The notes beneath the pieces are model-generated. The model worked only from the letters and a program-made list of their open reading frames with translations. It was not told where the DNA came from and searched no databases. Position numbers and translations under genes: made by a program. A stretch of 64,000 bases of DNA from an uncultured Christensenella sp. (lineage in GTDB: Bacteria > Bacillota > Clostridia > Christensenellales > CAG-917): NCBI GenBank assembly GCA_910584155.1, contig CAJTYG010000007.1, positions 65,848 through 129,847 on the forward strand. The letters run 5' to 3'. Shown here one piece after another: positions 1-14,193 of this stretch; positions within the stretch are counted from its first letter, which is position 1; the number at the start of each line of letters is the position of its first letter.

Positions 1-495
1 GTCTTAAGCGGTATGATAGACAGTCAGACGGCTTCAAATATCATTTCCCGCCTGCTCGAATTCAGCGCAGACGACGAAAGAAAGGAAATTCAGCTTTTCA
101 TAGGCTCGGAGGGCGGCGGCTACCTCGATATGATGGCAATTTACGATACGCTCAAAATGCTGCCAAATCCGCTTGTAGGCGTTTGCGTGGGTATGACAAG
201 CAACTATTCCACGCTTTTGCTTGCGGCATGTACAAAGGGAATGCGCAGTGCGCTAAAGCACAGTACGATTGAATTTGAGCAGCCATACGGCTCATTGGGC
301 ACAGGCGCAAATCAGCAAACCGAAATCGCAATAGCGTCAAAGGAAGCCCGTCTTGAAAGAGAGGTCTTTGAAAAGGCGCTTGCCGAGGTCACTGGACAGC
401 CGCTTGAGAGGATACACGAGGACTGCGAAAAGGGTGTGGAGCTTACGGCGGACGAGGCAAAGGCTTACGGAATCATCGATACCGTGCTCGATTAG
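1..495 (+). CDS. ClpP-family protein, predicted catalytically inactive paralogue (5' end lies outside the window)
   Basis: The frame is open to base 1 (VLSG precedes the first Met). It aligns to the ClpP core: IGSEGGG vs INSPGG, GMTSNYSTLLL vs GMAASMGAFLL, IEFEQP vs MIHQP, EKGVELTADEA vs DRDxxxSAxEA. The triad positions read Asn, Glu and Gly instead of Ser, His and Asp. Confidence 0.75.
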   Translation, partial: VLSGMIDSQTASNIISRLLEFSADDERKEIQLFIGSEGGGYLDMMAIYDTLKMLPNPLVGVCVGMTSNYSTLLLAACTKGMRSALKHSTIEFEQPYGSLGTGANQQTEIAIASKEARLEREVFEKALAEVTGQPLERIHEDCEKGVELTADEAKAYGIIDTVLD

Positions 496-516: not shown

Positions 517-1038
517 ATGGAAAAACAAAGGATTATCACTTTAAACGGAAGTGTGGACGAAGCAAGCGCAATGAGCGTCATTCTGCAGCTTTTGCACTAC
601 AACGACGATGACGAAAATAAGGAAATAAGCCTATATATCAATTCGCCCGGCGGCATAATCACATACGGGCTTGCCATTTACGACACTATACAGCACATCA
701 AGGCGCCCGTGTCAACGGTGTGCTGCGGTATGGCGGCGTCTATGGGTGCGTTTTTGCTGTCCTGCGGCGTCAAGGGCAGGCGTTTTGCGCTACCGCACAG
801 CAGGATACTCATTCATCAGCCGCTTATCTATGCGCAGCACGGAATGATAAAATCTCAGAGCGCAATGCAAAAGATGGCGGACAGTATTTTGCAGTCAAGA
901 GAGCAGCTTGAAGAAATACTTGCTAAAAACATAGGCAAGTCGATAGAGCAGATACACGCCGACTGCGAAAGAGACAACTGGATGAGCGCAGACGAGGCAG
1001 TGGCTTACGGCATAATAGACAAAATATCGGGCAGATAA
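517..1038 (+). CDS. ClpP-family serine protease with intact triad and a short N-terminus
   Basis: Motifs INSPGG, GMAASMGAFLL (Ser), LIHQP (His) and ERDNWMSADEA (Asp) are present. GAGGA lies about 6 nt upstream of the ATG. The ORF starts about 25 residues later than canonical ClpP, and an in-frame TAG lies 7 codons upstream. Confidence 0.8.
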   Translation: MEKQRIITLNGSVDEASAMSVILQLLHYNDDDENKEISLYINSPGGIITYGLAIYDTIQHIKAPVSTVCCGMAASMGAFLLSCGVKGRRFALPHSRILIHQPLIYAQHGMIKSQSAMQKMADSILQSREQLEEILAKNIGKSIEQIHADCERDNWMSADEAVAYGIIDKISGR

Positions 1039-1052
1039 ATCGGGATATAAAA

Positions 1053-3884
1053 ATGAAGCGGCAAAACCTAAAGCATAAATTTAAAGTAGTATTTCCAAAG
1101 CTTTGTCTTTGGAGCCTGTTAGCGCTGTTTTTTGCAGTAGCTATTGCGCTTTGCATTGCGTATTTCTGCACGAAGGATACGGGAAATAAGGGCTTGGGAC
1201 TTTCGCTCGGTGTGTTTGCGGGCGCAGCGGCTGTGATTTTGATGTCGATAGCTACGCTTGCGGCTTATTTTGGGGCGAGGAAAAAGGGCGCTCATAAAAA
1301 GTATTCCGTTGAAGTCTGGACGGTAGCAGGTATTTTTTTGGTCTGTGTATTGATAAAATTTGTCGCAGGACTTGTGCTTTATTTGCAGGGCAATCCCGAA
1401 TTTACAGATAAGGATAACTCCGTCCACGAGGGATTTATGATAATATTTTCCTCATTTTACGAGGGTGTGGGCAAGCTCGCATACGAGGGTATTACGCCGC
1501 TACAACACATCTGGGCAAGCATTGCGTACTATGGCGCTTCGCTGTATGCAGGTCTTATGTATCTTATCATCATATCCGCAAAGGCGAGCTACGAGGGCTA
1601 TTCGTATATGCGGATGTGCTTTAAAGGCTACACAAAAAACAATATCTACGTCTTTACGGCGCTTATCGATGAAACGCTCGAGCTTGCTAAGTCTGTAAAA
1701 AGCACGTACGGCAAAAAGGCGACTATAGTCTTTGCGGGCAGTGCGCTGCAGCCCTTTGACAGGCACGACGAGCTGTGCAGAGAGGCTATGGCAAACGGCT
1801 TTTTGTATTGGTCGTATTCGGATAAAAACAGATCGATTGCAGATATACTGCATTTGGACAACCGCAATCTGAACGACTATACAAAGAGCTACACAGTCTT
1901 CGCCTTCGAAGCAAACGAGCATATCCCCGAAGAGGAAAACAATATGGACGCCGTATTTTCGGATATAGAAAGGCGTATTGCTCAGGGCGACGATGGACTG
2001 CGCATAGAGTATTATATCCTCACAAAGCGCAATATAAATTATCAGGCATACGAAAGCAAAAAGAAAGAGCTTATAAAGTCTTTTAAAGCTTCGGACGACA
2101 GTTTAAAAGACTTGAGCGATAAGCAAATCAAAAAGGAATTCAGCAAGCGATTTGTGCTCGAGATATGGAACGAGGCAAAAACCGTTGCCGAGCGTGCCGT
2201 GTCCGACGTGCTTGAAGCAGGTCTCAGACAGCAGCTTGCAGAAAACGGCGCAAGGAAAGTGTCCGTATGGTCGCTTGGCTTCGGCGGCACGGCGGAAGCT
2301 ATTGCAAACACGCTGTTTGTGCAGACGGCAAATATCGACAAAAACGGATATAGCCGAGCCTACACCGTTGACGTCTTTGACAAGCTGATAAGCGGCGCAG
2401 ACAATGCGGCGCAGGCGAGCTTGGACGGAATATTCAGATTTTCTCATCCAGACTATATTTTTGCAAATAGTGACGACGAAATCAAAGCGGAATACGAAAG
2501 ACGTGCGGTTGAAAACGTCGATAAGATTTTGAACTGTAATTTTGATTTGCCTGCAATGTTGGAAGACTGCATTCAAAGCAAGGTTGATGCGTGTGATGAG
2601 GCAAAAGAGGAAGCTAAAAGAATAGAAAATCAGTTAAAAGCTGCCGAACGCTACCGTGATATGATAGAGGCATTTTTTGCGGATATTTATAAAAACCAGC
2701 TTGAAAGCATAGTTAAAGACGCCGTTTCGGATAGGTTAAACGGCAATTCCGTAAAAGTTGATGACAAGTGGATAGATGATGTTTTAAATAAATTGCAGCA
2801 GTTATCCAAAGATATGCTAAATAAAAAATCAGTCATCAATGATGAAAAATTTTTAAAGCTCGTTGCAGATGAGCTTGCAAAATTGCCTGCCGACAAAGCG
2901 TTTATCGAAGAGGTAATAAGCGAATATATTTTGAGTGTTGCGGAGCTGAATTTCCCGCACCCCATATTCCGATTTAACGCTTATGACTGTCTGTCGAGAG
3001 GCTTTTACGAAAGATTTGCGGAGGTGACGGACAAGCCGTCCAATAGGCTTGATAACGTCAAATTCGATACGCCAGACGTTATTGTGATTGCGACGGGCGA
3101 CGACTATCAAAACGTCCGCATTGCAAATACTCTGCTTCAATATGCCGTCAATCATAAAAAGGACGGCAGCCGTCAATATATCGTCATAAATATTTTCAAC
3201 AGGCAGAACAACGATTTGATAGGAACTTTCGGCGGGAAGTGGGAAGAGAATAAACTGTCTGTTATGATAGGCAGCGGCTCCGTTGACCTTATCATAGTCG
3301 GCAACTATGAGGACACATACAACTACGAGGGCTTGACGGACTTAAAAACTGCGGCAAGCTGGCAAAACTATATATACAATAAAAGCAACGACCATATAAC
3401 TCACGATCCCAATACCGTAAACAGATTTTTGTTTGCTTCGGGCAGGGGCTGCGATGGAAAGATGTTTATGGACGACATTATGGCATTCGCAGGCAACGCC
3501 AAAAGAATGACGTTAAAATCGCAGCCTAAAGACGCAGGGCAGGAGCTTGCGGACAGTCTTGCGGATTATTATGCGCTCGATTTGTGGAAGAAGGAATCTA
3601 ATAAGAGCGTTGTCGCCTTTAAGAAAATGTATATGGCGTTTTATGAGGTCGCTTTAAGAGACACGGTTGAGTATGCAAAACGGGTTTTTGCAGTCGAGCA
3701 CGACAGGTGGACAAGGCTGTATATTTCGGACGGCTGGGTTTATCGCAGCATAAAGAATGAGGACAACAAGCAGCATGCGTGCTTAAAGGACGTCAGACAT
3801 ATTGAACTTACGACGCTCATCTACGACTTTTTGAACGCAATATGGGCGGTGTCTGAAATAATCGATACGGATAAAAAACTATGA
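1053..3884 (+). CDS. Large membrane protein: N-terminal TM helices, two Rossmann/TrkA-N-like modules, a coiled-coil region, and a C-terminal RyR-like motif
   Basis: 943-aa ORF starting 14 nt after the preceding gene. Hydrophobic helices fall in the first ~190 aa. Rossmann-like stretches include VSVWSLGFGGTAEAIANTL and DVIVIATGDDYQNVRIANTLL. The middle is rich in K/E/A heptad-like sequence. The C-terminus AVEHDRWTRLYISDGWVY...K.H resembles the RyR-domain signature. Confidence 0.6.
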   Translation: MKRQNLKHKFKVVFPKLCLWSLLALFFAVAIALCIAYFCTKDTGNKGLGLSLGVFAGAAAVILMSIATLAAYFGARKKGAHKKYSVEVWTVAGIFLVCVLIKFVAGLVLYLQGNPEFTDKDNSVHEGFMIIFSSFYEGVGKLAYEGITPLQHIWASIAYYGASLYAGLMYLIIISAKASYEGYSYMRMCFKGYTKNNIYVFTALIDETLELAKSVKSTYGKKATIVFAGSALQPFDRHDELCREAMANGFLYWSYSDKNRSIADILHLDNRNLNDYTKSYTVFAFEANEHIPEEENNMDAVFSDIERRIAQGDDGLRIEYYILTKRNINYQAYESKKKELIKSFKASDDSLKDLSDKQIKKEFSKRFVLEIWNEAKTVAERAVSDVLEAGLRQQLAENGARKVSVWSLGFGGTAEAIANTLFVQTANIDKNGYSRAYTVDVFDKLISGADNAAQASLDGIFRFSHPDYIFANSDDEIKAEYERRAVENVDKILNCNFDLPAMLEDCIQSKVDACDEAKEEAKRIENQLKAAERYRDMIEAFFADIYKNQLESIVKDAVSDRLNGNSVKVDDKWIDDVLNKLQQLSKDMLNKKSVINDEKFLKLVADELAKLPADKAFIEEVISEYILSVAELNFPHPIFRFNAYDCLSRGFYERFAEVTDKPSNRLDNVKFDTPDVIVIATGDDYQNVRIANTLLQYAVNHKKDGSRQYIVINIFNRQNNDLIGTFGGKWEENKLSVMIGSGSVDLIIVGNYEDTYNYEGLTDLKTAASWQNYIYNKSNDHITHDPNTVNRFLFASGRGCDGKMFMDDIMAFAGNAKRMTLKSQPKDAGQELADSLADYYALDLWKKESNKSVVAFKKMYMAFYEVALRDTVEYAKRVFAVEHDRWTRLYISDGWVYRSIKNEDNKQHACLKDVRHIELTTLIYDFLNAIWAVSEIIDTDKKL

Positions 3885-4747
3885 GTGGAAATTTGCTGTT
3901 TAAGCTATATGAGCTTTTAAATGAAAACAAATACGTCACTTTTAAAGGCGTAATGAAAAGCGGTTTTGACGGCAAGACCGCATTTGAGCTTATGCAAATG
4001 CTCGTATCCTGCGGCGCATTGGTTGAAACGGCAGACAGGGGCGTGCTTGAGGTCAAATACGGCGAGCTCAACGCATTTATGCACTCAAAAAATCTTTGGA
4101 TAGAGGACAGCGAAGATTATCTTGAGCTTAAAAAGCGTGCCGACACGCTGTCGCTCACGCAGGTTTTTTGGCTGAAAGAGGCGATAAAAAACGACGGCGT
4201 TTTTCAACTTGACGGGGATATTTCCGACGATAAGCTACTTGTTCTTGAAAAATCTGTCGAGCAGGGCATATTCAGTAAAACGAGCGAGAAAACATTTTTG
4301 TGCAATATTCCTTTGTTTGCGGTGCGCAAATTGGTCTGTTTTGCCGACGAAAAGCTTTGCAGGTTTTTGACCTATATCTTTGCAAGCGTGAGGGAAGTGA
4401 TCAGGTTTAAGGAAGATAAGGACAAACGCAAGGCGTTTTTCAGAGAAAACTGTGAGTTTTACGGAATATTCCCCGACTTGGATTTAGATTATCTCGATTA
4501 CAAAGAGGAAGACGTAGCGCATTTGGACTGGGGCGACAGGCACCTGTTTGACGATCTTATAGAGGGCGTGACGTACTCTGTTTCGGCACGCAATTTTGCA
4601 AAGCTGGATCTTAATAAGGTTTATAGATATCCCGACGACGAAAACGGCGCAACGGAAATGACCGACGTTATGCTTGGCGAGGTATTGGAAAAAATGTTGC
4701 GTATAGCCGCCGCTATAAAAGCGGACGATATCGGAAACAAGGAGTAA
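3881..4747 (+). CDS. Hypothetical protein with tandem winged-helix-like N-terminal repeats (paralogue of the next gene)
   Basis: ATGA overlap with the upstream ORF. The N-terminus KLYELLNENKYVTFKGVMKSGFDGKTAFELMQMLVSCGALVE aligns with the N-terminus of the 4750-5958 product. Confidence 0.55.
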   Translation: MSGNLLFKLYELLNENKYVTFKGVMKSGFDGKTAFELMQMLVSCGALVETADRGVLEVKYGELNAFMHSKNLWIEDSEDYLELKKRADTLSLTQVFWLKEAIKNDGVFQLDGDISDDKLLVLEKSVEQGIFSKTSEKTFLCNIPLFAVRKLVCFADEKLCRFLTYIFASVREVIRFKEDKDKRKAFFRENCEFYGIFPDLDLDYLDYKEEDVAHLDWGDRHLFDDLIEGVTYSVSARNFAKLDLNKVYRYPDDENGATEMTDVMLGEVLEKMLRIAAAIKADDIGNKE

Positions 4748-4749
4748 AC

Positions 4750-5958
4750 GTGGAAAAACAACTGAAAGCATATGCCATACTATTGGACGAAAAAAGTGTG
4801 TCGTTGAAAAGCCTTGTAAAGGGCGGATACGATATGAAATTCGCTTTTGAGTTTATTAAAAAGCTGCTTGCGCTCGGATTTGTCAAGGACAGCGGCGACG
4901 GCAATTTTTTGCTTTGCGTACCCGAGCAGGAGGTCAGAAAAATAATGCGAGCGGAAAAATGCGAATACAAAGATTTTTCCGATGACGAGCTAAAAAGAAT
5001 CGCCGACGACATCGACCTTAGCGCAATTCTCGTTTTGGCGCATATCAGTCAAAGCGAAACGGGATATAGCCTGATTGAGCTTTGCGAGGCGTTTAAAGGT
5101 GACTTTACAAGGCATTTGGAAGTTTTGCGAGGCGAGGGCTTGATATCTTATGACGAGGGCAGTTATATAGGCAAAATAAGCCCCGAAAACCTTTTGAAGC
5201 TTATACTTATGGCGTTGGACATTTTGAGCTTCGAGCTTGCAATGATAAATAAAGACCGCTGCGACTTCGATACTCCTGCGCTCAAGAAAAAGCGCATAGA
5301 TGAAATAAACAATCTTACCGCACAGCTATTAAGAAAGGGAGAGCTTATCAGAAATGCTATCGCTATGGGCGAGCTTGTTGCTGATGGCGACTTAGAGTAT
5401 GATTTCGGCTACGAGGACGATGACGACACATATTTATACGACGATGATGACAGCGACGAGGAAGATGAAAAAGGCGGGGAAGATGATTGTTTTGGATATC
5501 ATAAAATAGCGGACGGTCTTTATGAGAAGGACGGAAAGCTTTACGATGAATTTTTCTTCCCTGTTGATGATTACAGCGAGGATAACGACGACAGCGAAAC
5601 TACCGACAGCGAAACTACCGACAGCGAAACTACCGACGGCGAAGCCGCCGACGGCAAAAACGCAGATGACGGCGAGAATGATAGCGGCGACGGCGAAAAC
5701 GAGGCTGAAAGTGAAGATAAAGTCAGAGCCGATATGATAAGCTTCCTTAAGCAGTTCAATGTCGATGACGCCGAAGCACTGTATGACCAGATGTTTGAAC
5801 AGTTTGACGGCTTGGATGATATTGATGATTTCGACGGCTTGGATGAAATCGATGATGAAGATATTGACGTCGATGACGATTTTTTCGATGATATCGATGA
5901 TACCGATGATATCGATGATATCGACGATATAGACAGCGACGGTGACGGGGACGAATAA
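4750..5958 (+). CDS. Hypothetical winged-helix-like protein with an extremely acidic, repeat-containing C-terminal half
   Basis: GTG start 6 nt after AAGGAG and 2 nt after the upstream stop. The N-terminus is paralogous to the 3881-4747 product. The last ~200 aa are dominated by D/E, including SETTD x3 and DDIDD-type repeats. Confidence 0.6.
   Translation: MEKQLKAYAILLDEKSVSLKSLVKGGYDMKFAFEFIKKLLALGFVKDSGDGNFLLCVPEQEVRKIMRAEKCEYKDFSDDELKRIADDIDLSAILVLAHISQSETGYSLIELCEAFKGDFTRHLEVLRGEGLISYDEGSYIGKISPENLLKLILMALDILSFELAMINKDRCDFDTPALKKKRIDEINNLTAQLLRKGELIRNAIAMGELVADGDLEYDFGYEDDDDTYLYDDDDSDEEDEKGGEDDCFGYHKIADGLYEKDGKLYDEFFFPVDDYSEDNDDSETTDSETTDSETTDGEAADGKNADDGENDSGDGENEAESEDKVRADMISFLKQFNVDDAEALYDQMFEQFDGLDDIDDFDGLDEIDDEDIDVDDDFFDDIDDTDDIDDIDDIDSDGDGDE
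5593..5637 (+). repeat. Three perfect tandem copies of a 15-bp unit (agcgaaactaccgac) encoding SETTD
   Basis: Read directly from the sequence: units at 5593-5607, 5608-5622 and 5623-5637. Confidence 0.95.
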
Positions 5959-5989
5959 ATCAGCCTCGGCGCTTTGCTTTGAGGCTGAT
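5959..5989 (+). terminator. Hairpin after the acidic-protein gene (ATCAGCCTC / GAGGCTGAT)
   Basis: 9-bp perfect inverted repeat with a 13-nt loop, directly after the stop codon. The U-tract is weak. Confidence 0.45.

Positions 5990-11160: not shown

Positions 11161-14193
<3,033 letters not shown>

What the first reader, a model, noticed from the sequence alone, without database searches (positions are those of the whole stretch)
1..495. ClpP paralogue with all three catalytic-triad residues replaced (ClpR-like pseudo-protease)
Seen: hand alignment to the adjacent ClpP and to E. coli/B. subtilis ClpP places Asn at the nucleophile Ser (GMTSNYS vs GMAASMG). It places Glu at the His (IEFEQP vs LIHQP) and Gly at the Asp (CEKGVELTADEA vs CERDNWMSADEA). 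The rest of the fold signature is retained.

Established: inactive ClpR subunits that co-assemble with ClpP are known from cyanobacteria and plastids.

Inference: a ClpP/ClpR-type hetero-oligomer in a Bacillota-like genome would be unusual.
Basis: partly seen in the sequence, partly recalled or inferred. Interest (0 to 1): 0.6.

Follow-up and report, generated by a model that had tools for sequence, protein, structure and literature searches.

The report
Dead ClpP partnered with live ClpP
This gene encodes a well-conserved, catalytically dead copy of the ClpP protease that always sits directly before a live, gate-less ClpP. In most cases the pair lies in an undescribed operon with a soluble conjugation-type ATPase. 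It is therefore a new, independently evolved ClpR-like protease subunit in gut Clostridia.

Summary
The ORF is cut by the window edge. The full gene has 180 codons and starts 48 nt upstream of window base 1. It is a full-length ClpP-fold protein in which Ser, His and Asp are replaced by Asn84, Glu109 and Gly160.

It is not a decaying gene. dN/dS is 0.05-0.16 in four independent species pairs. None of 54 distinct relatives keeps the triad, and none keeps the His. All form one clade.

In 28 of 28 loci the dead gene is followed within a few bases by a short ClpP with an intact triad. The two proteins co-diverge (r = 0.88). Both lack the N-terminal gating loop.

In 15 of 19 well-flanked loci the pair adjoins a membrane-free VirD4/TraG-like ATPase and a Sel1-repeat protein. 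That protein has a disordered C-terminal tail ending in a conserved [I/L/M/F]GF, like the ClpX docking loop.

"ClpR-like" is right as an analogy. Descent from cyanobacterial ClpR was not tested and looks unlikely. Triad-less ClpPs are also published for actinomycetes.

Hetero-oligomer assembly and the link to the ATPase are inferred, not shown.

This scan has already noted the same ATPase-ClpP module on other genomes. I found no paper describing it.

The parts
1..495 (+). Dead ClpP paralogue (ClpR-like). The 3' 495 nt of a 543-nt gene; the true start is 48 nt upstream of the window at G000:C7:65800. Triad positions are Asn84, Glu109, Gly160.
   Evidence: alignment; Pfam 128 bits; fold; dN/dS 0.05-0.16; 0 of 54 relatives with a triad.
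517..1038 (+). Live short ClpP, 173 aa, with Ser-His-Asp intact. It starts 4 residues before the first core strand, so it has no axial loop and no helix A.
   Evidence: 208 bits; 24 of 24 partners SHD.
1053..3884 (+). 943-aa membrane protein with N-terminal TM helices, Rossmann-like modules and a weak RyR-like C-terminus. Homologues follow the live ClpP in 13 of 28 loci.
   Evidence: RyR E = 0.0013, below cut-off; Kyte-Doolittle 19-residue window maximum 2.75.
3881..4747 (+). 288-aa protein of unknown function; its start overlaps the previous stop by 4 nt. Paralogous to the next gene.
   Evidence: E = 1e-8 over about 105 aa; no family hit.
4750..5958 (+). 402-aa paralogue of the 288-aa protein, with an acidic C-terminal half.
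5959..5989 (+). Strong hairpin just after the last stop codon; probable end of the operon, ahead of dnaG.
   Evidence: -24.2 kcal/mol, z = -3.0. No clear U-tract.

Best explanation
The gene encodes a non-catalytic ClpP-fold subunit, a functional analogue of ClpR. It works together with the catalytically intact short ClpP encoded 21 nt downstream, most likely by co-assembling into one ClpP-type barrel.

The dead subunit keeps helix A, the canonical handle strand (fixed in the clade as GxNQQTEIAI) and most of the apical hydrophobic pocket. I therefore propose that it supplies the structural or docking ring and the live subunit supplies the active sites. Neither subunit has the N-terminal gating hairpin.

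The pair is an optional cassette of an accessory operon. The constant core of that operon is a membrane-free VirD4/TraG-like ATPase plus a Sel1-repeat protein. The Sel1 protein's flexible C-terminal [I/L/M/F]GF tail resembles the ClpX IGF/LGF docking loop. The likely logic is that this adaptor tethers the ATPase to a ClpP barrel, here a dedicated dead/live one.

Shown: loss of the triad, retained fold, purifying selection, monophyly, strict adjacency and co-divergence with the live partner, frequent linkage to the ATPase and adaptor, and the conserved IGF-like tail.

Inferred: physical co-assembly, ring arrangement, which ring docks the tail, and substrate delivery by the ATPase.
For: Triad replaced in an unambiguous register. 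ClpP fold retained (pLDDT 93.6, TM about 0.9).

Selection: dN/dS of the dead gene is 0.158 against a sister species with the same intact 8-gene operon. It is 0.047-0.067 in three other close pairs, similar to the live gene.

Family: 54 distinct members, none with the full triad and none with His, and 14 invariant non-catalytic positions. The dead clade has SH-aLRT 100 and the live-partner clade 98. Dead and live share derived residues that are rare or absent in housekeeping ClpPs (Glu149, His164, Cys167 in housekeeping numbering).

Linkage: the order dead then live, with gaps of about -8 to 63 nt, holds in 28 of 28 loci. Pairwise divergences of the two correlate at r = 0.88.

Interface hints: the ring-ring sensor Arg is kept in 24 of 24 live subunits and lost in the dead ones, while the facing acidic residue is kept in 49 of 54 dead subunits.

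Module: the ATPase and Sel1 protein are adjacent in 15 of 19 well-flanked loci. The Sel1 protein ends in [KR]x[ILMF]GF in 15 of 15 orthologues, on a tail with pLDDT below 50. It carries a Sel1 unit (E = 2e-8). The genome's own ClpX loop reads SKLGFG. The ATPase has conserved Walker A and B motifs and no TM segment. A promoter-like TTGACA-17-TATATT site lies ahead of the Sel1 gene, and intergenic gaps through the operon are short.
Against: Four well-flanked loci carry the dead/live pair with no cognate ATPase or adaptor nearby. Of five genomes searched whole, two had no VirD4-like match at all and three had only paralogues of about 30% identity. So the pair does not strictly need that motor.

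Conversely, about 20 of 34 ATPase-adaptor loci have no ClpP pair within 7 kb yet mostly keep the IGF-like tail. The tail may therefore target the housekeeping ClpP rather than the dead subunit.

Both paralogues have lost the aromatic residues at the E. coli Phe49 and Phe82 pocket positions, so docking of an IGF motif is not assured.

The three clades meet in an unrooted tree, so 'dead and live are sisters' rests only on the shared derived residues.
Confidence: 0.72

Rival explanations
1. The dead protein does not assemble with the adjacent live ClpP. It acts on its own or on the housekeeping ClpXP/ClpCP machine, for example as a heptameric cap, decoy or inhibitor that competes for ClpX or the adaptor, or poisons housekeeping ClpP.
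For: It keeps helix A, a Tyr62-equivalent aromatic in 53 of 54 members and most pocket hydrophobics, so it could bind IGF/LGF loops. It has lost the sensor Arg used for ring-ring contacts. The genome has a normal tig-clpP-clpX locus.
Against: Strict adjacency to, and co-divergence with, a dedicated live partner (28 of 28 loci, r = 0.88). The handle strand, which is the ring-ring interface, is hyper-conserved. No locus has the dead gene without the live one.
Confidence: 0.13
2. It is a decaying pseudogene left by a tandem duplication of clpP.
For: All three catalytic residues are gone. The dead clade evolves about 1.5 times faster than the live one (mean p-distance 0.51 against 0.35).
Against: dN/dS is 0.05-0.16 in four independent pairs. 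ORFs of about 180 aa are intact in all 54 distinct members, with 14 invariant positions. It has a strong ribosome-binding site and a high-confidence fold.
Confidence: 0.02
3. It is still a hydrolase, using a non-canonical active site.
For: A few members have Ser at the nucleophile position (4 of 54 are SSG) or keep the Asp (11 of 54). An invariant His155 and a near-invariant Cys158 (own numbering) lie near the former Asp.
Against: No residue is conserved at the nucleophile position (G, N, D, S, A, R) or at the His position (S, E, G, N, D, Q, R, A). The His/Cys motif is shared with the live partner, which has its own triad, so it looks structural.
Confidence: 0.04
4. It is a remnant of a phage ClpP-like head-maturation protease or scaffold.
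For: Weak hits to phage head-maturation families (NF045542 E = 2e-6; phrog_94 E = 5e-8). It lacks the axial loop, as those proteases do.
Against: Cellular ClpP profiles score far higher (E = 4e-43 against 2e-6). There are no capsid, portal or terminase genes around it. GC content equals the genome average (0.458 against 0.460).
Confidence: 0.02

Closest known systems
ClpR of cyanobacteria, plastids and apicoplasts (for example the Synechococcus ClpP3/ClpR core and Plasmodium ClpR)
   Same: A ClpP-fold subunit without the Ser-His-Asp triad, kept by selection and encoded alongside an active ClpP with which it is expected to form the core (PMC7966870).
   Different: It belongs to a small separate clade in gut and rumen Clostridia and Bacilli. 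It is short (about 180 aa) and lacks the N-terminal gating hairpin. Its partner ClpP lacks the whole N-terminal region. It sits in an accessory operon with a VirD4-like ATPase rather than working with ClpC.
Actinoplanes missouriensis ClpP3 and the triad-less Streptomyces ClpPs (SCO7280 and relatives)
   Same: Triad-less ClpP paralogues in non-photosynthetic Gram-positive bacteria, interpreted as ClpR-type subunits. They are lineage-restricted and accessory (PMC13689560).
   Different: Different phylum. ClpP3 is reported to lack all three pocket aromatics and to have a disordered N-terminus, and it is not reported with a VirD4-like ATPase. Here a Tyr62-equivalent aromatic is kept in 53 of 54 members.
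Hetero-tetradecameric ClpP1P2 cores (Listeria, Mycobacterium, Streptomyces, Chlamydia)
   Same: Two adjacent clpP paralogues that form stacked homo-heptameric rings with a division of labour; only one ring docks the ATPase.
   Different: In those systems both subunits keep a catalytic site (Listeria ClpP1 has Asn for Asp) and both keep the N-terminal loops.
Type IV coupling proteins (VirD4/TraG/TrwB; NCBIfam NF045973, 'CD1115 family')
   Same: The neighbouring 611-aa ATPase matches T4SS-DNA_transf, TraG-D_C and TrwB_AAD_bind, with Walker A and B conserved.
   Different: It has no TM anchor and scores below the NF045973 cut-off (209.7 against 250). No relaxase or T4SS genes are nearby. It is always paired with an IGF-tailed Sel1 protein (34 of 34 loci).

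Membership tests
ClpP family (Pfam PF00574 / MEROPS S14 fold) | Full-length match to the CLP_protease profile, and the ClpP alpha/beta fold with a handle helix | tested here: met
   128.4 bits against a cut-off of 20.2, profile positions 21-179 of 182. AF2 pLDDT 93.6; Foldseek TM 0.88-0.91 to ClpP structures.
Active ClpP peptidase | Ser-His-Asp catalytic triad | tested here: not met
   Asn84, Glu109 and Gly160 at the aligned positions. None of 54 clade members has the triad.
Active ClpP peptidase | Score above the NCBIfam ClpP cut-offs (TIGR00493 equivalog, NF001368 subfamily) | tested here: not met
   TIGR00493: 133.1 against 308.6 bits. NF001368: 147.8 against 249 bits.
Canonical ClpP | N-terminal axial hairpin (PxVxExxxxGER) that gates the pore and contacts the unfoldase | tested here: not met
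   Median of 15 residues before the first core strand in the dead clade, against 27 in housekeeping ClpP and 4 in the live partner. The hairpin columns are empty.
ClpR-type non-catalytic subunit (functional class) | ClpP fold without a triad, maintained by selection | tested here: met
ClpR-type non-catalytic subunit (functional class) | Co-assembles with an active ClpP into the proteolytic core | not testable with these tools
   Indirect evidence only: 28 of 28 adjacency, r = 0.88 co-divergence, complementary loss and retention of the sensor Arg and acidic pair.
Cyanobacterial/plastid ClpR orthologous group | Common descent with cyanobacterial ClpR | tested here: inconclusive
   No ClpR sequence could be placed in the tree. 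All top 60 PDB hits are named as ordinary proteolytic subunits (ClpP, ClpP1 or ClpP2). NF009204, which passes its cut-off in only 1 of 14 control genomes, scores 95.8 bits against a cut-off of 263, lower than generic ClpP models. I could not confirm that this model is the ClpR model.
Phage ClpP-related head-maturation protease (NF045542) | Score above the family cut-off, and a capsid-gene context | tested here: not met
   27.9 bits against a cut-off of 120. No phage structural genes nearby.
Conjugative type IV coupling protein (neighbouring ATPase) | N-terminal TM anchor and a T4SS/relaxase context | tested here: not met
   Maximum 19-residue hydropathy 1.26. NF045973 scores 209.7 against a cut-off of 250. 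No T4SS genes were found in the flanks.

The most novel reading that the evidence does not exclude
The dead/live gate-less ClpP pair is the dedicated proteolytic chamber of a new kind of energy-dependent protease. Its motor would not be an AAA+ unfoldase but a soluble FtsK/VirD4-family hexamer. A Sel1 adaptor would tether the motor to the dead ring, with six C-terminal IGF tails mimicking the ClpX IGF loops. The system could serve as an accessory conflict or defence-type module that destroys proteins attached to incoming DNA, or other specific targets.
Probability: 0.3. Interest if true: 0.85.

Novelty: new variant of a known kind. Interest (0 to 1): 0.62.

Why it matters
Non-catalytic ClpP subunits have been studied almost only in cyanobacteria and plastids, where their role is still debated. 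This is an independent bacterial case with a simple two-gene core that could be expressed and assembled in vitro.

It also has two unusual traits. The first is complete loss of the axial gate in both subunits. The second is genetic linkage to a conjugation-type ATPase through an adaptor with an IGF-like tail. If that linkage reflects physical coupling, ClpP would be shown to work with a non-AAA+ motor. That would widen the known architectures of energy-dependent proteolysis and point to an undescribed accessory system in gut Clostridia.

Tried and rejected
- **Register shift:** rejected. HMMER and MAFFT agree and are gap-free at all three sites.
- **Pseudogene:** rejected by dN/dS and family conservation.
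- **Known defence systems:** PADLOC gave nothing for either ClpP or the unknown proteins. The only hit was a weak mad8 match (E = 1.4e-7) for the ATPase.
- **Phage origin:** only weak head-protease hits.
- **'Inactive Lon-like adaptor':** this reading from earlier scan notes on other genomes is not supported for this genome's 302-aa protein. Profile and fold searches show only Sel1-like repeats.
- **IGF-like loop inside the ATPase:** none is conserved.
- **Order-wide census with the dead-clade profile:** the threshold let housekeeping ClpPs through. Read by score, only the own genome exceeds 200 bits among 151 genomes, and the same-genus genome lacks the pair.
- **Empty-site comparison with a same-genus genome:** synteny upstream of dnaG is rearranged, so no clean insertion boundary could be drawn.
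- **Literature:** searches for a VirD4/TraG-ClpP system found nothing relevant.

Full report
**1. What is there**

The window is G000:C7:65848-129847. The reported ORF runs off the 5' end of the window. In the genome it is a 180-codon gene at C7:65800-66342. Its ATG lies 7 nt behind a GAGGAGG ribosome-binding site and 10 nt after the stop of the preceding gene.

Pfam places the protein in CLP_protease at 128.4 bits, against a cut-off of 20.2. HMMER against solved structures aligns residues 5-179 with residues 18-189 of B. subtilis ClpP at E = 1.4e-34, without gaps at the catalytic sites. MAFFT with the neighbouring ClpP and the genome's housekeeping ClpP gives the same register. The housekeeping gene lies in a tig-clpP-clpX locus on contig C11.

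In both alignments Ser becomes Asn84, His becomes Glu109 and Asp becomes Gly160.

An AlphaFold2 model built on 34 relatives has pLDDT 93.6. It superposes on ClpP structures with TM about 0.9, and the long handle helix is present. The genome has exactly three ClpP-family genes: housekeeping (287.7 bits), live short (208.6 bits) and dead (140.8 bits).

**2. It is a maintained gene, not a wreck**

A sister species carries the same eight-gene operon with every gene intact. Between the two, the dead gene has dN/dS 0.158. The live ClpP has 0.102, the ATPase 0.052 and dnaG 0.068. Three further close species pairs give 0.047-0.067 for the dead gene, the same range as the live gene.

A search of 5.8 billion proteins found a tight group of proteins of about 180 aa. 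With the loci fetched later there are 54 distinct sequences. None has the triad and none has the His. The Ser position holds G, N, D, S, A or R. The His position holds S, E, G, N, D, Q, R or A. The Asp position is mostly G, with D in 11 of 54.

In contrast, 14 other positions are invariant in the 34-sequence alignment. The handle strand is almost fixed as GxNQQTEIAI. An exhaustive profile search of 1.84 billion representatives shows that the clade is small. About 20 clusters at 50% identity score above the continuum of ordinary ClpPs.

**3. It always comes with a live partner**

In all 28 loci examined, the dead gene is followed on the same strand by a ClpP of about 173 aa with Ser-His-Asp intact. 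The gap is usually 0-20 nt.

In a maximum-likelihood tree of 125 sequences the dead proteins form one clade (SH-aLRT 100). Their partners form another (98). Housekeeping ClpPs fall on the remaining side (78). A single loss of catalysis therefore suffices.

Pairwise divergences of dead and live proteins across 24 loci correlate at r = 0.88. The dead protein evolves about 1.5 times faster.

Dead and live share residues that are rare or absent in housekeeping ClpPs: Glu149, His164 and Cys167 in housekeeping numbering. This suggests they arose by duplication of one accessory ClpP. The tree is unrooted, so this is an inference.

**4. Anatomy that bears on mechanism**

- **N-terminus.** Housekeeping ClpPs have a median of 27 residues before the first core strand. 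The dead clade has 15: helix A is present and the gating hairpin is absent. The live clade has 4, so neither is present.
- **Ring-ring contact.** The inter-ring "oligomerisation sensor" is Asp170/Arg171 in S. aureus ClpP numbering (my own knowledge of the family). It is Glu-Arg-Asp in 24 of 24 live proteins. In the dead proteins the Arg is lost but the preceding Glu is kept in 49 of 54. This pattern fits a live ring facing a dead ring better than a dead homo-tetradecamer.
- **Docking pocket.** PMC13689560 uses three E. coli residues as markers of unfoldase docking: Tyr60, Tyr62 and Phe82. In the dead clade these positions hold Gln (47 of 54), Phe or Tyr (53 of 54), and Thr, Ser or Ala. In the live clade they hold Ser or Tyr, Tyr (24 of 24), and His, Leu or Tyr. 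Across the wider pocket the dead protein keeps more of the hydrophobic positions than the live one, including Leu23 on helix A, which the live protein lacks altogether.

From this I infer that the dead subunit is the structural or docking half and the live subunit the catalytic half. This inference is untested.

**5. The neighbourhood**

The pair sits in an eight-gene, same-strand operon. Coordinates below are on L003, which equals C7 minus 49999.

- A promoter-like TTGACA-17-TATATT site at 11246-11274.
- A 302-aa protein, with its true ATG at 11303.
- A 611-aa VirD4/TraG-like ATPase at 12232-14067.
- A 549-aa protein.
- The dead ClpP and then the live ClpP.
- The 943-aa membrane protein.
- Two paralogous proteins of 288 and 402 aa.
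- A strong hairpin, followed by dnaG and rpoD.

The ATPase matches T4SS-DNA_transf, TraG-D_C and TrwB_AAD_bind. It also matches NCBIfam NF045973, but below the cut-off. Walker A and B are conserved and there is no TM segment.

The 302-aa protein is all-helical (pLDDT 88) and carries a Sel1 repeat unit (E = 2e-8). Its last ten residues are predicted disordered. They carry a motif conserved in 15 of 15 orthologues: [KR]x[I/L/M/F]GF, here SKRIGFN. This resembles the ClpP-docking loop of the genome's own ClpX, SSKLGFGS.

**6. How the pieces co-occur**

Among 19 distinct loci with at least 3 kb on both sides of the ClpP pair, 15 have the ATPase and adaptor next door, either upstream on the same strand or divergent. 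Four do not. I searched five genomes with pair-only loci as whole genomes. Three held only VirD4 paralogues of about 30% identity and two held none.

Starting instead from the adaptor, 34 of 34 loci pair it with the ATPase. Nearly all keep the xGF tail. Only 14 have the dead/live pair within 7 kb. One close relative has the operon with the 549-aa and 943-aa homologues but no ClpP pair.

The ATPase plus adaptor is therefore the constant core, and the dead/live ClpP pair is an optional cassette. This cuts both ways. It supports a functional link between this module and ClpP. It also allows that the tail normally addresses the housekeeping ClpP.

**7. Distribution**

The clade occurs in uncultured gut and rumen Clostridia (Christensenellaceae-like MAGs) and in a few Bacilli and Erysipelotrichaceae.

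In a sample of 151 genomes of the same order, only the own genome has a match above 200 bits. The same-genus representative lacks the pair, and its dnaG neighbourhood is syntenic with another contig of the own genome.

GC content of the operon equals the genome mean. Some relatives lie next to Thoeris-like, RloB/AAA_21, AbiH and HicB genes. This hints at a conflict-system role but does not show one. PADLOC does not recognise the system.

**8. Comparison with known systems**

The closest functional parallel is ClpR of cyanobacteria, plastids and apicoplasts: a triad-less ClpP homologue that joins an active ClpP in the core (PMC7966870).

Triad-less ClpPs are also published for Actinoplanes (ClpP3, interpreted as ClpR-type) and for some Streptomyces (PMC13689560). 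A ClpR-type subunit outside photosynthetic lineages is therefore no longer unprecedented.

Three things are different here. The clade is separate. Both subunits have lost the axial gate. The pair is linked to a VirD4-like ATPase through an IGF-tailed Sel1 protein.

I found no paper on such a module. Earlier notes of this scan describe the same ATPase-ClpP module on other genomes, one of them with a dead/live pair. These are AI notes and I used them as leads only. My own data agree on the module. They do not support the "inactive Lon-like" description for this genome's adaptor.

**9. Limits**

There is no expression or biochemical evidence. No multimer modelling was possible. ClpR, TepA and the actinobacterial dead ClpPs are not in the tree. 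E. coli and S. aureus residue roles are taken from established ClpP literature and my own knowledge, mapped through the B. subtilis numbering printed.

Noticed in passing
window 463-477 and 958-972 (motif IHxDCE in both paralogues): Dead and live ClpPs both carry a conserved His and Cys just before the Asp position: IHEDCEKG in the dead protein and IHADCERD in the live one. His is present in 54 of 54 dead and 23 of 24 live proteins. Cys is present in 38 of 54 dead and 24 of 24 live proteins. Housekeeping ClpPs mostly have Glu, Ala or Val and Thr there. This could be a shared interface or metal site of the accessory pair.
   Followed up: partly
L138:1977-9326: A Christensenellaceae relative, 62-65% identical in the adaptor and ATPase, has the same operon (adaptor, ATPase, 549-aa-like and 943-aa-like genes) without the dead/live ClpP pair. 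The pair therefore behaves as an insertable cassette.
   Followed up: partly
L139:115-3736: An Acholeplasmatales MAG has the adaptor and ATPase followed by a single live short ClpP with no dead partner detected. This may be a single-ClpP variant of the module.
   Followed up: no
protein P0134 (363 aa): A high-GC metagenomic protein fuses two ClpP-like domains. Both lack the nucleophile Ser; the first keeps His. It is unrelated to this clade, but it is another apparently inactive ClpP architecture.
   Followed up: no
G000:C7:50235-61164 (upstream of the window; L003:236-11165): The operon is preceded by a 2343-aa protein with no family hit, two proteins of about 331 aa with no family hit, a 218-aa protein with a weak BspA-type LRR match, and a second RtcB RNA ligase copy (49% identical to the one on contig C4) on the opposite strand. 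The sister species has the same arrangement. A same-genus genome has none of it upstream of dnaG.
   Followed up: partly
L003:11246-11302 (C7:61245-61301): The longest ORF for the adaptor starts at a TTG that is itself the -35 hexamer of the best promoter match. Orthologues and the sister species show that the real start is the ATG 57 nt downstream (302 aa, not 321).
   Followed up: yes
L008:1-482 and L006:14384-16628: In two distant relatives the module lies near Thoeris-like ThsA/ThsB fragments, an RloB plus AAA_21 pair, AbiH and HicB-like genes. That is a defence-island-like neighbourhood.
   Followed up: no
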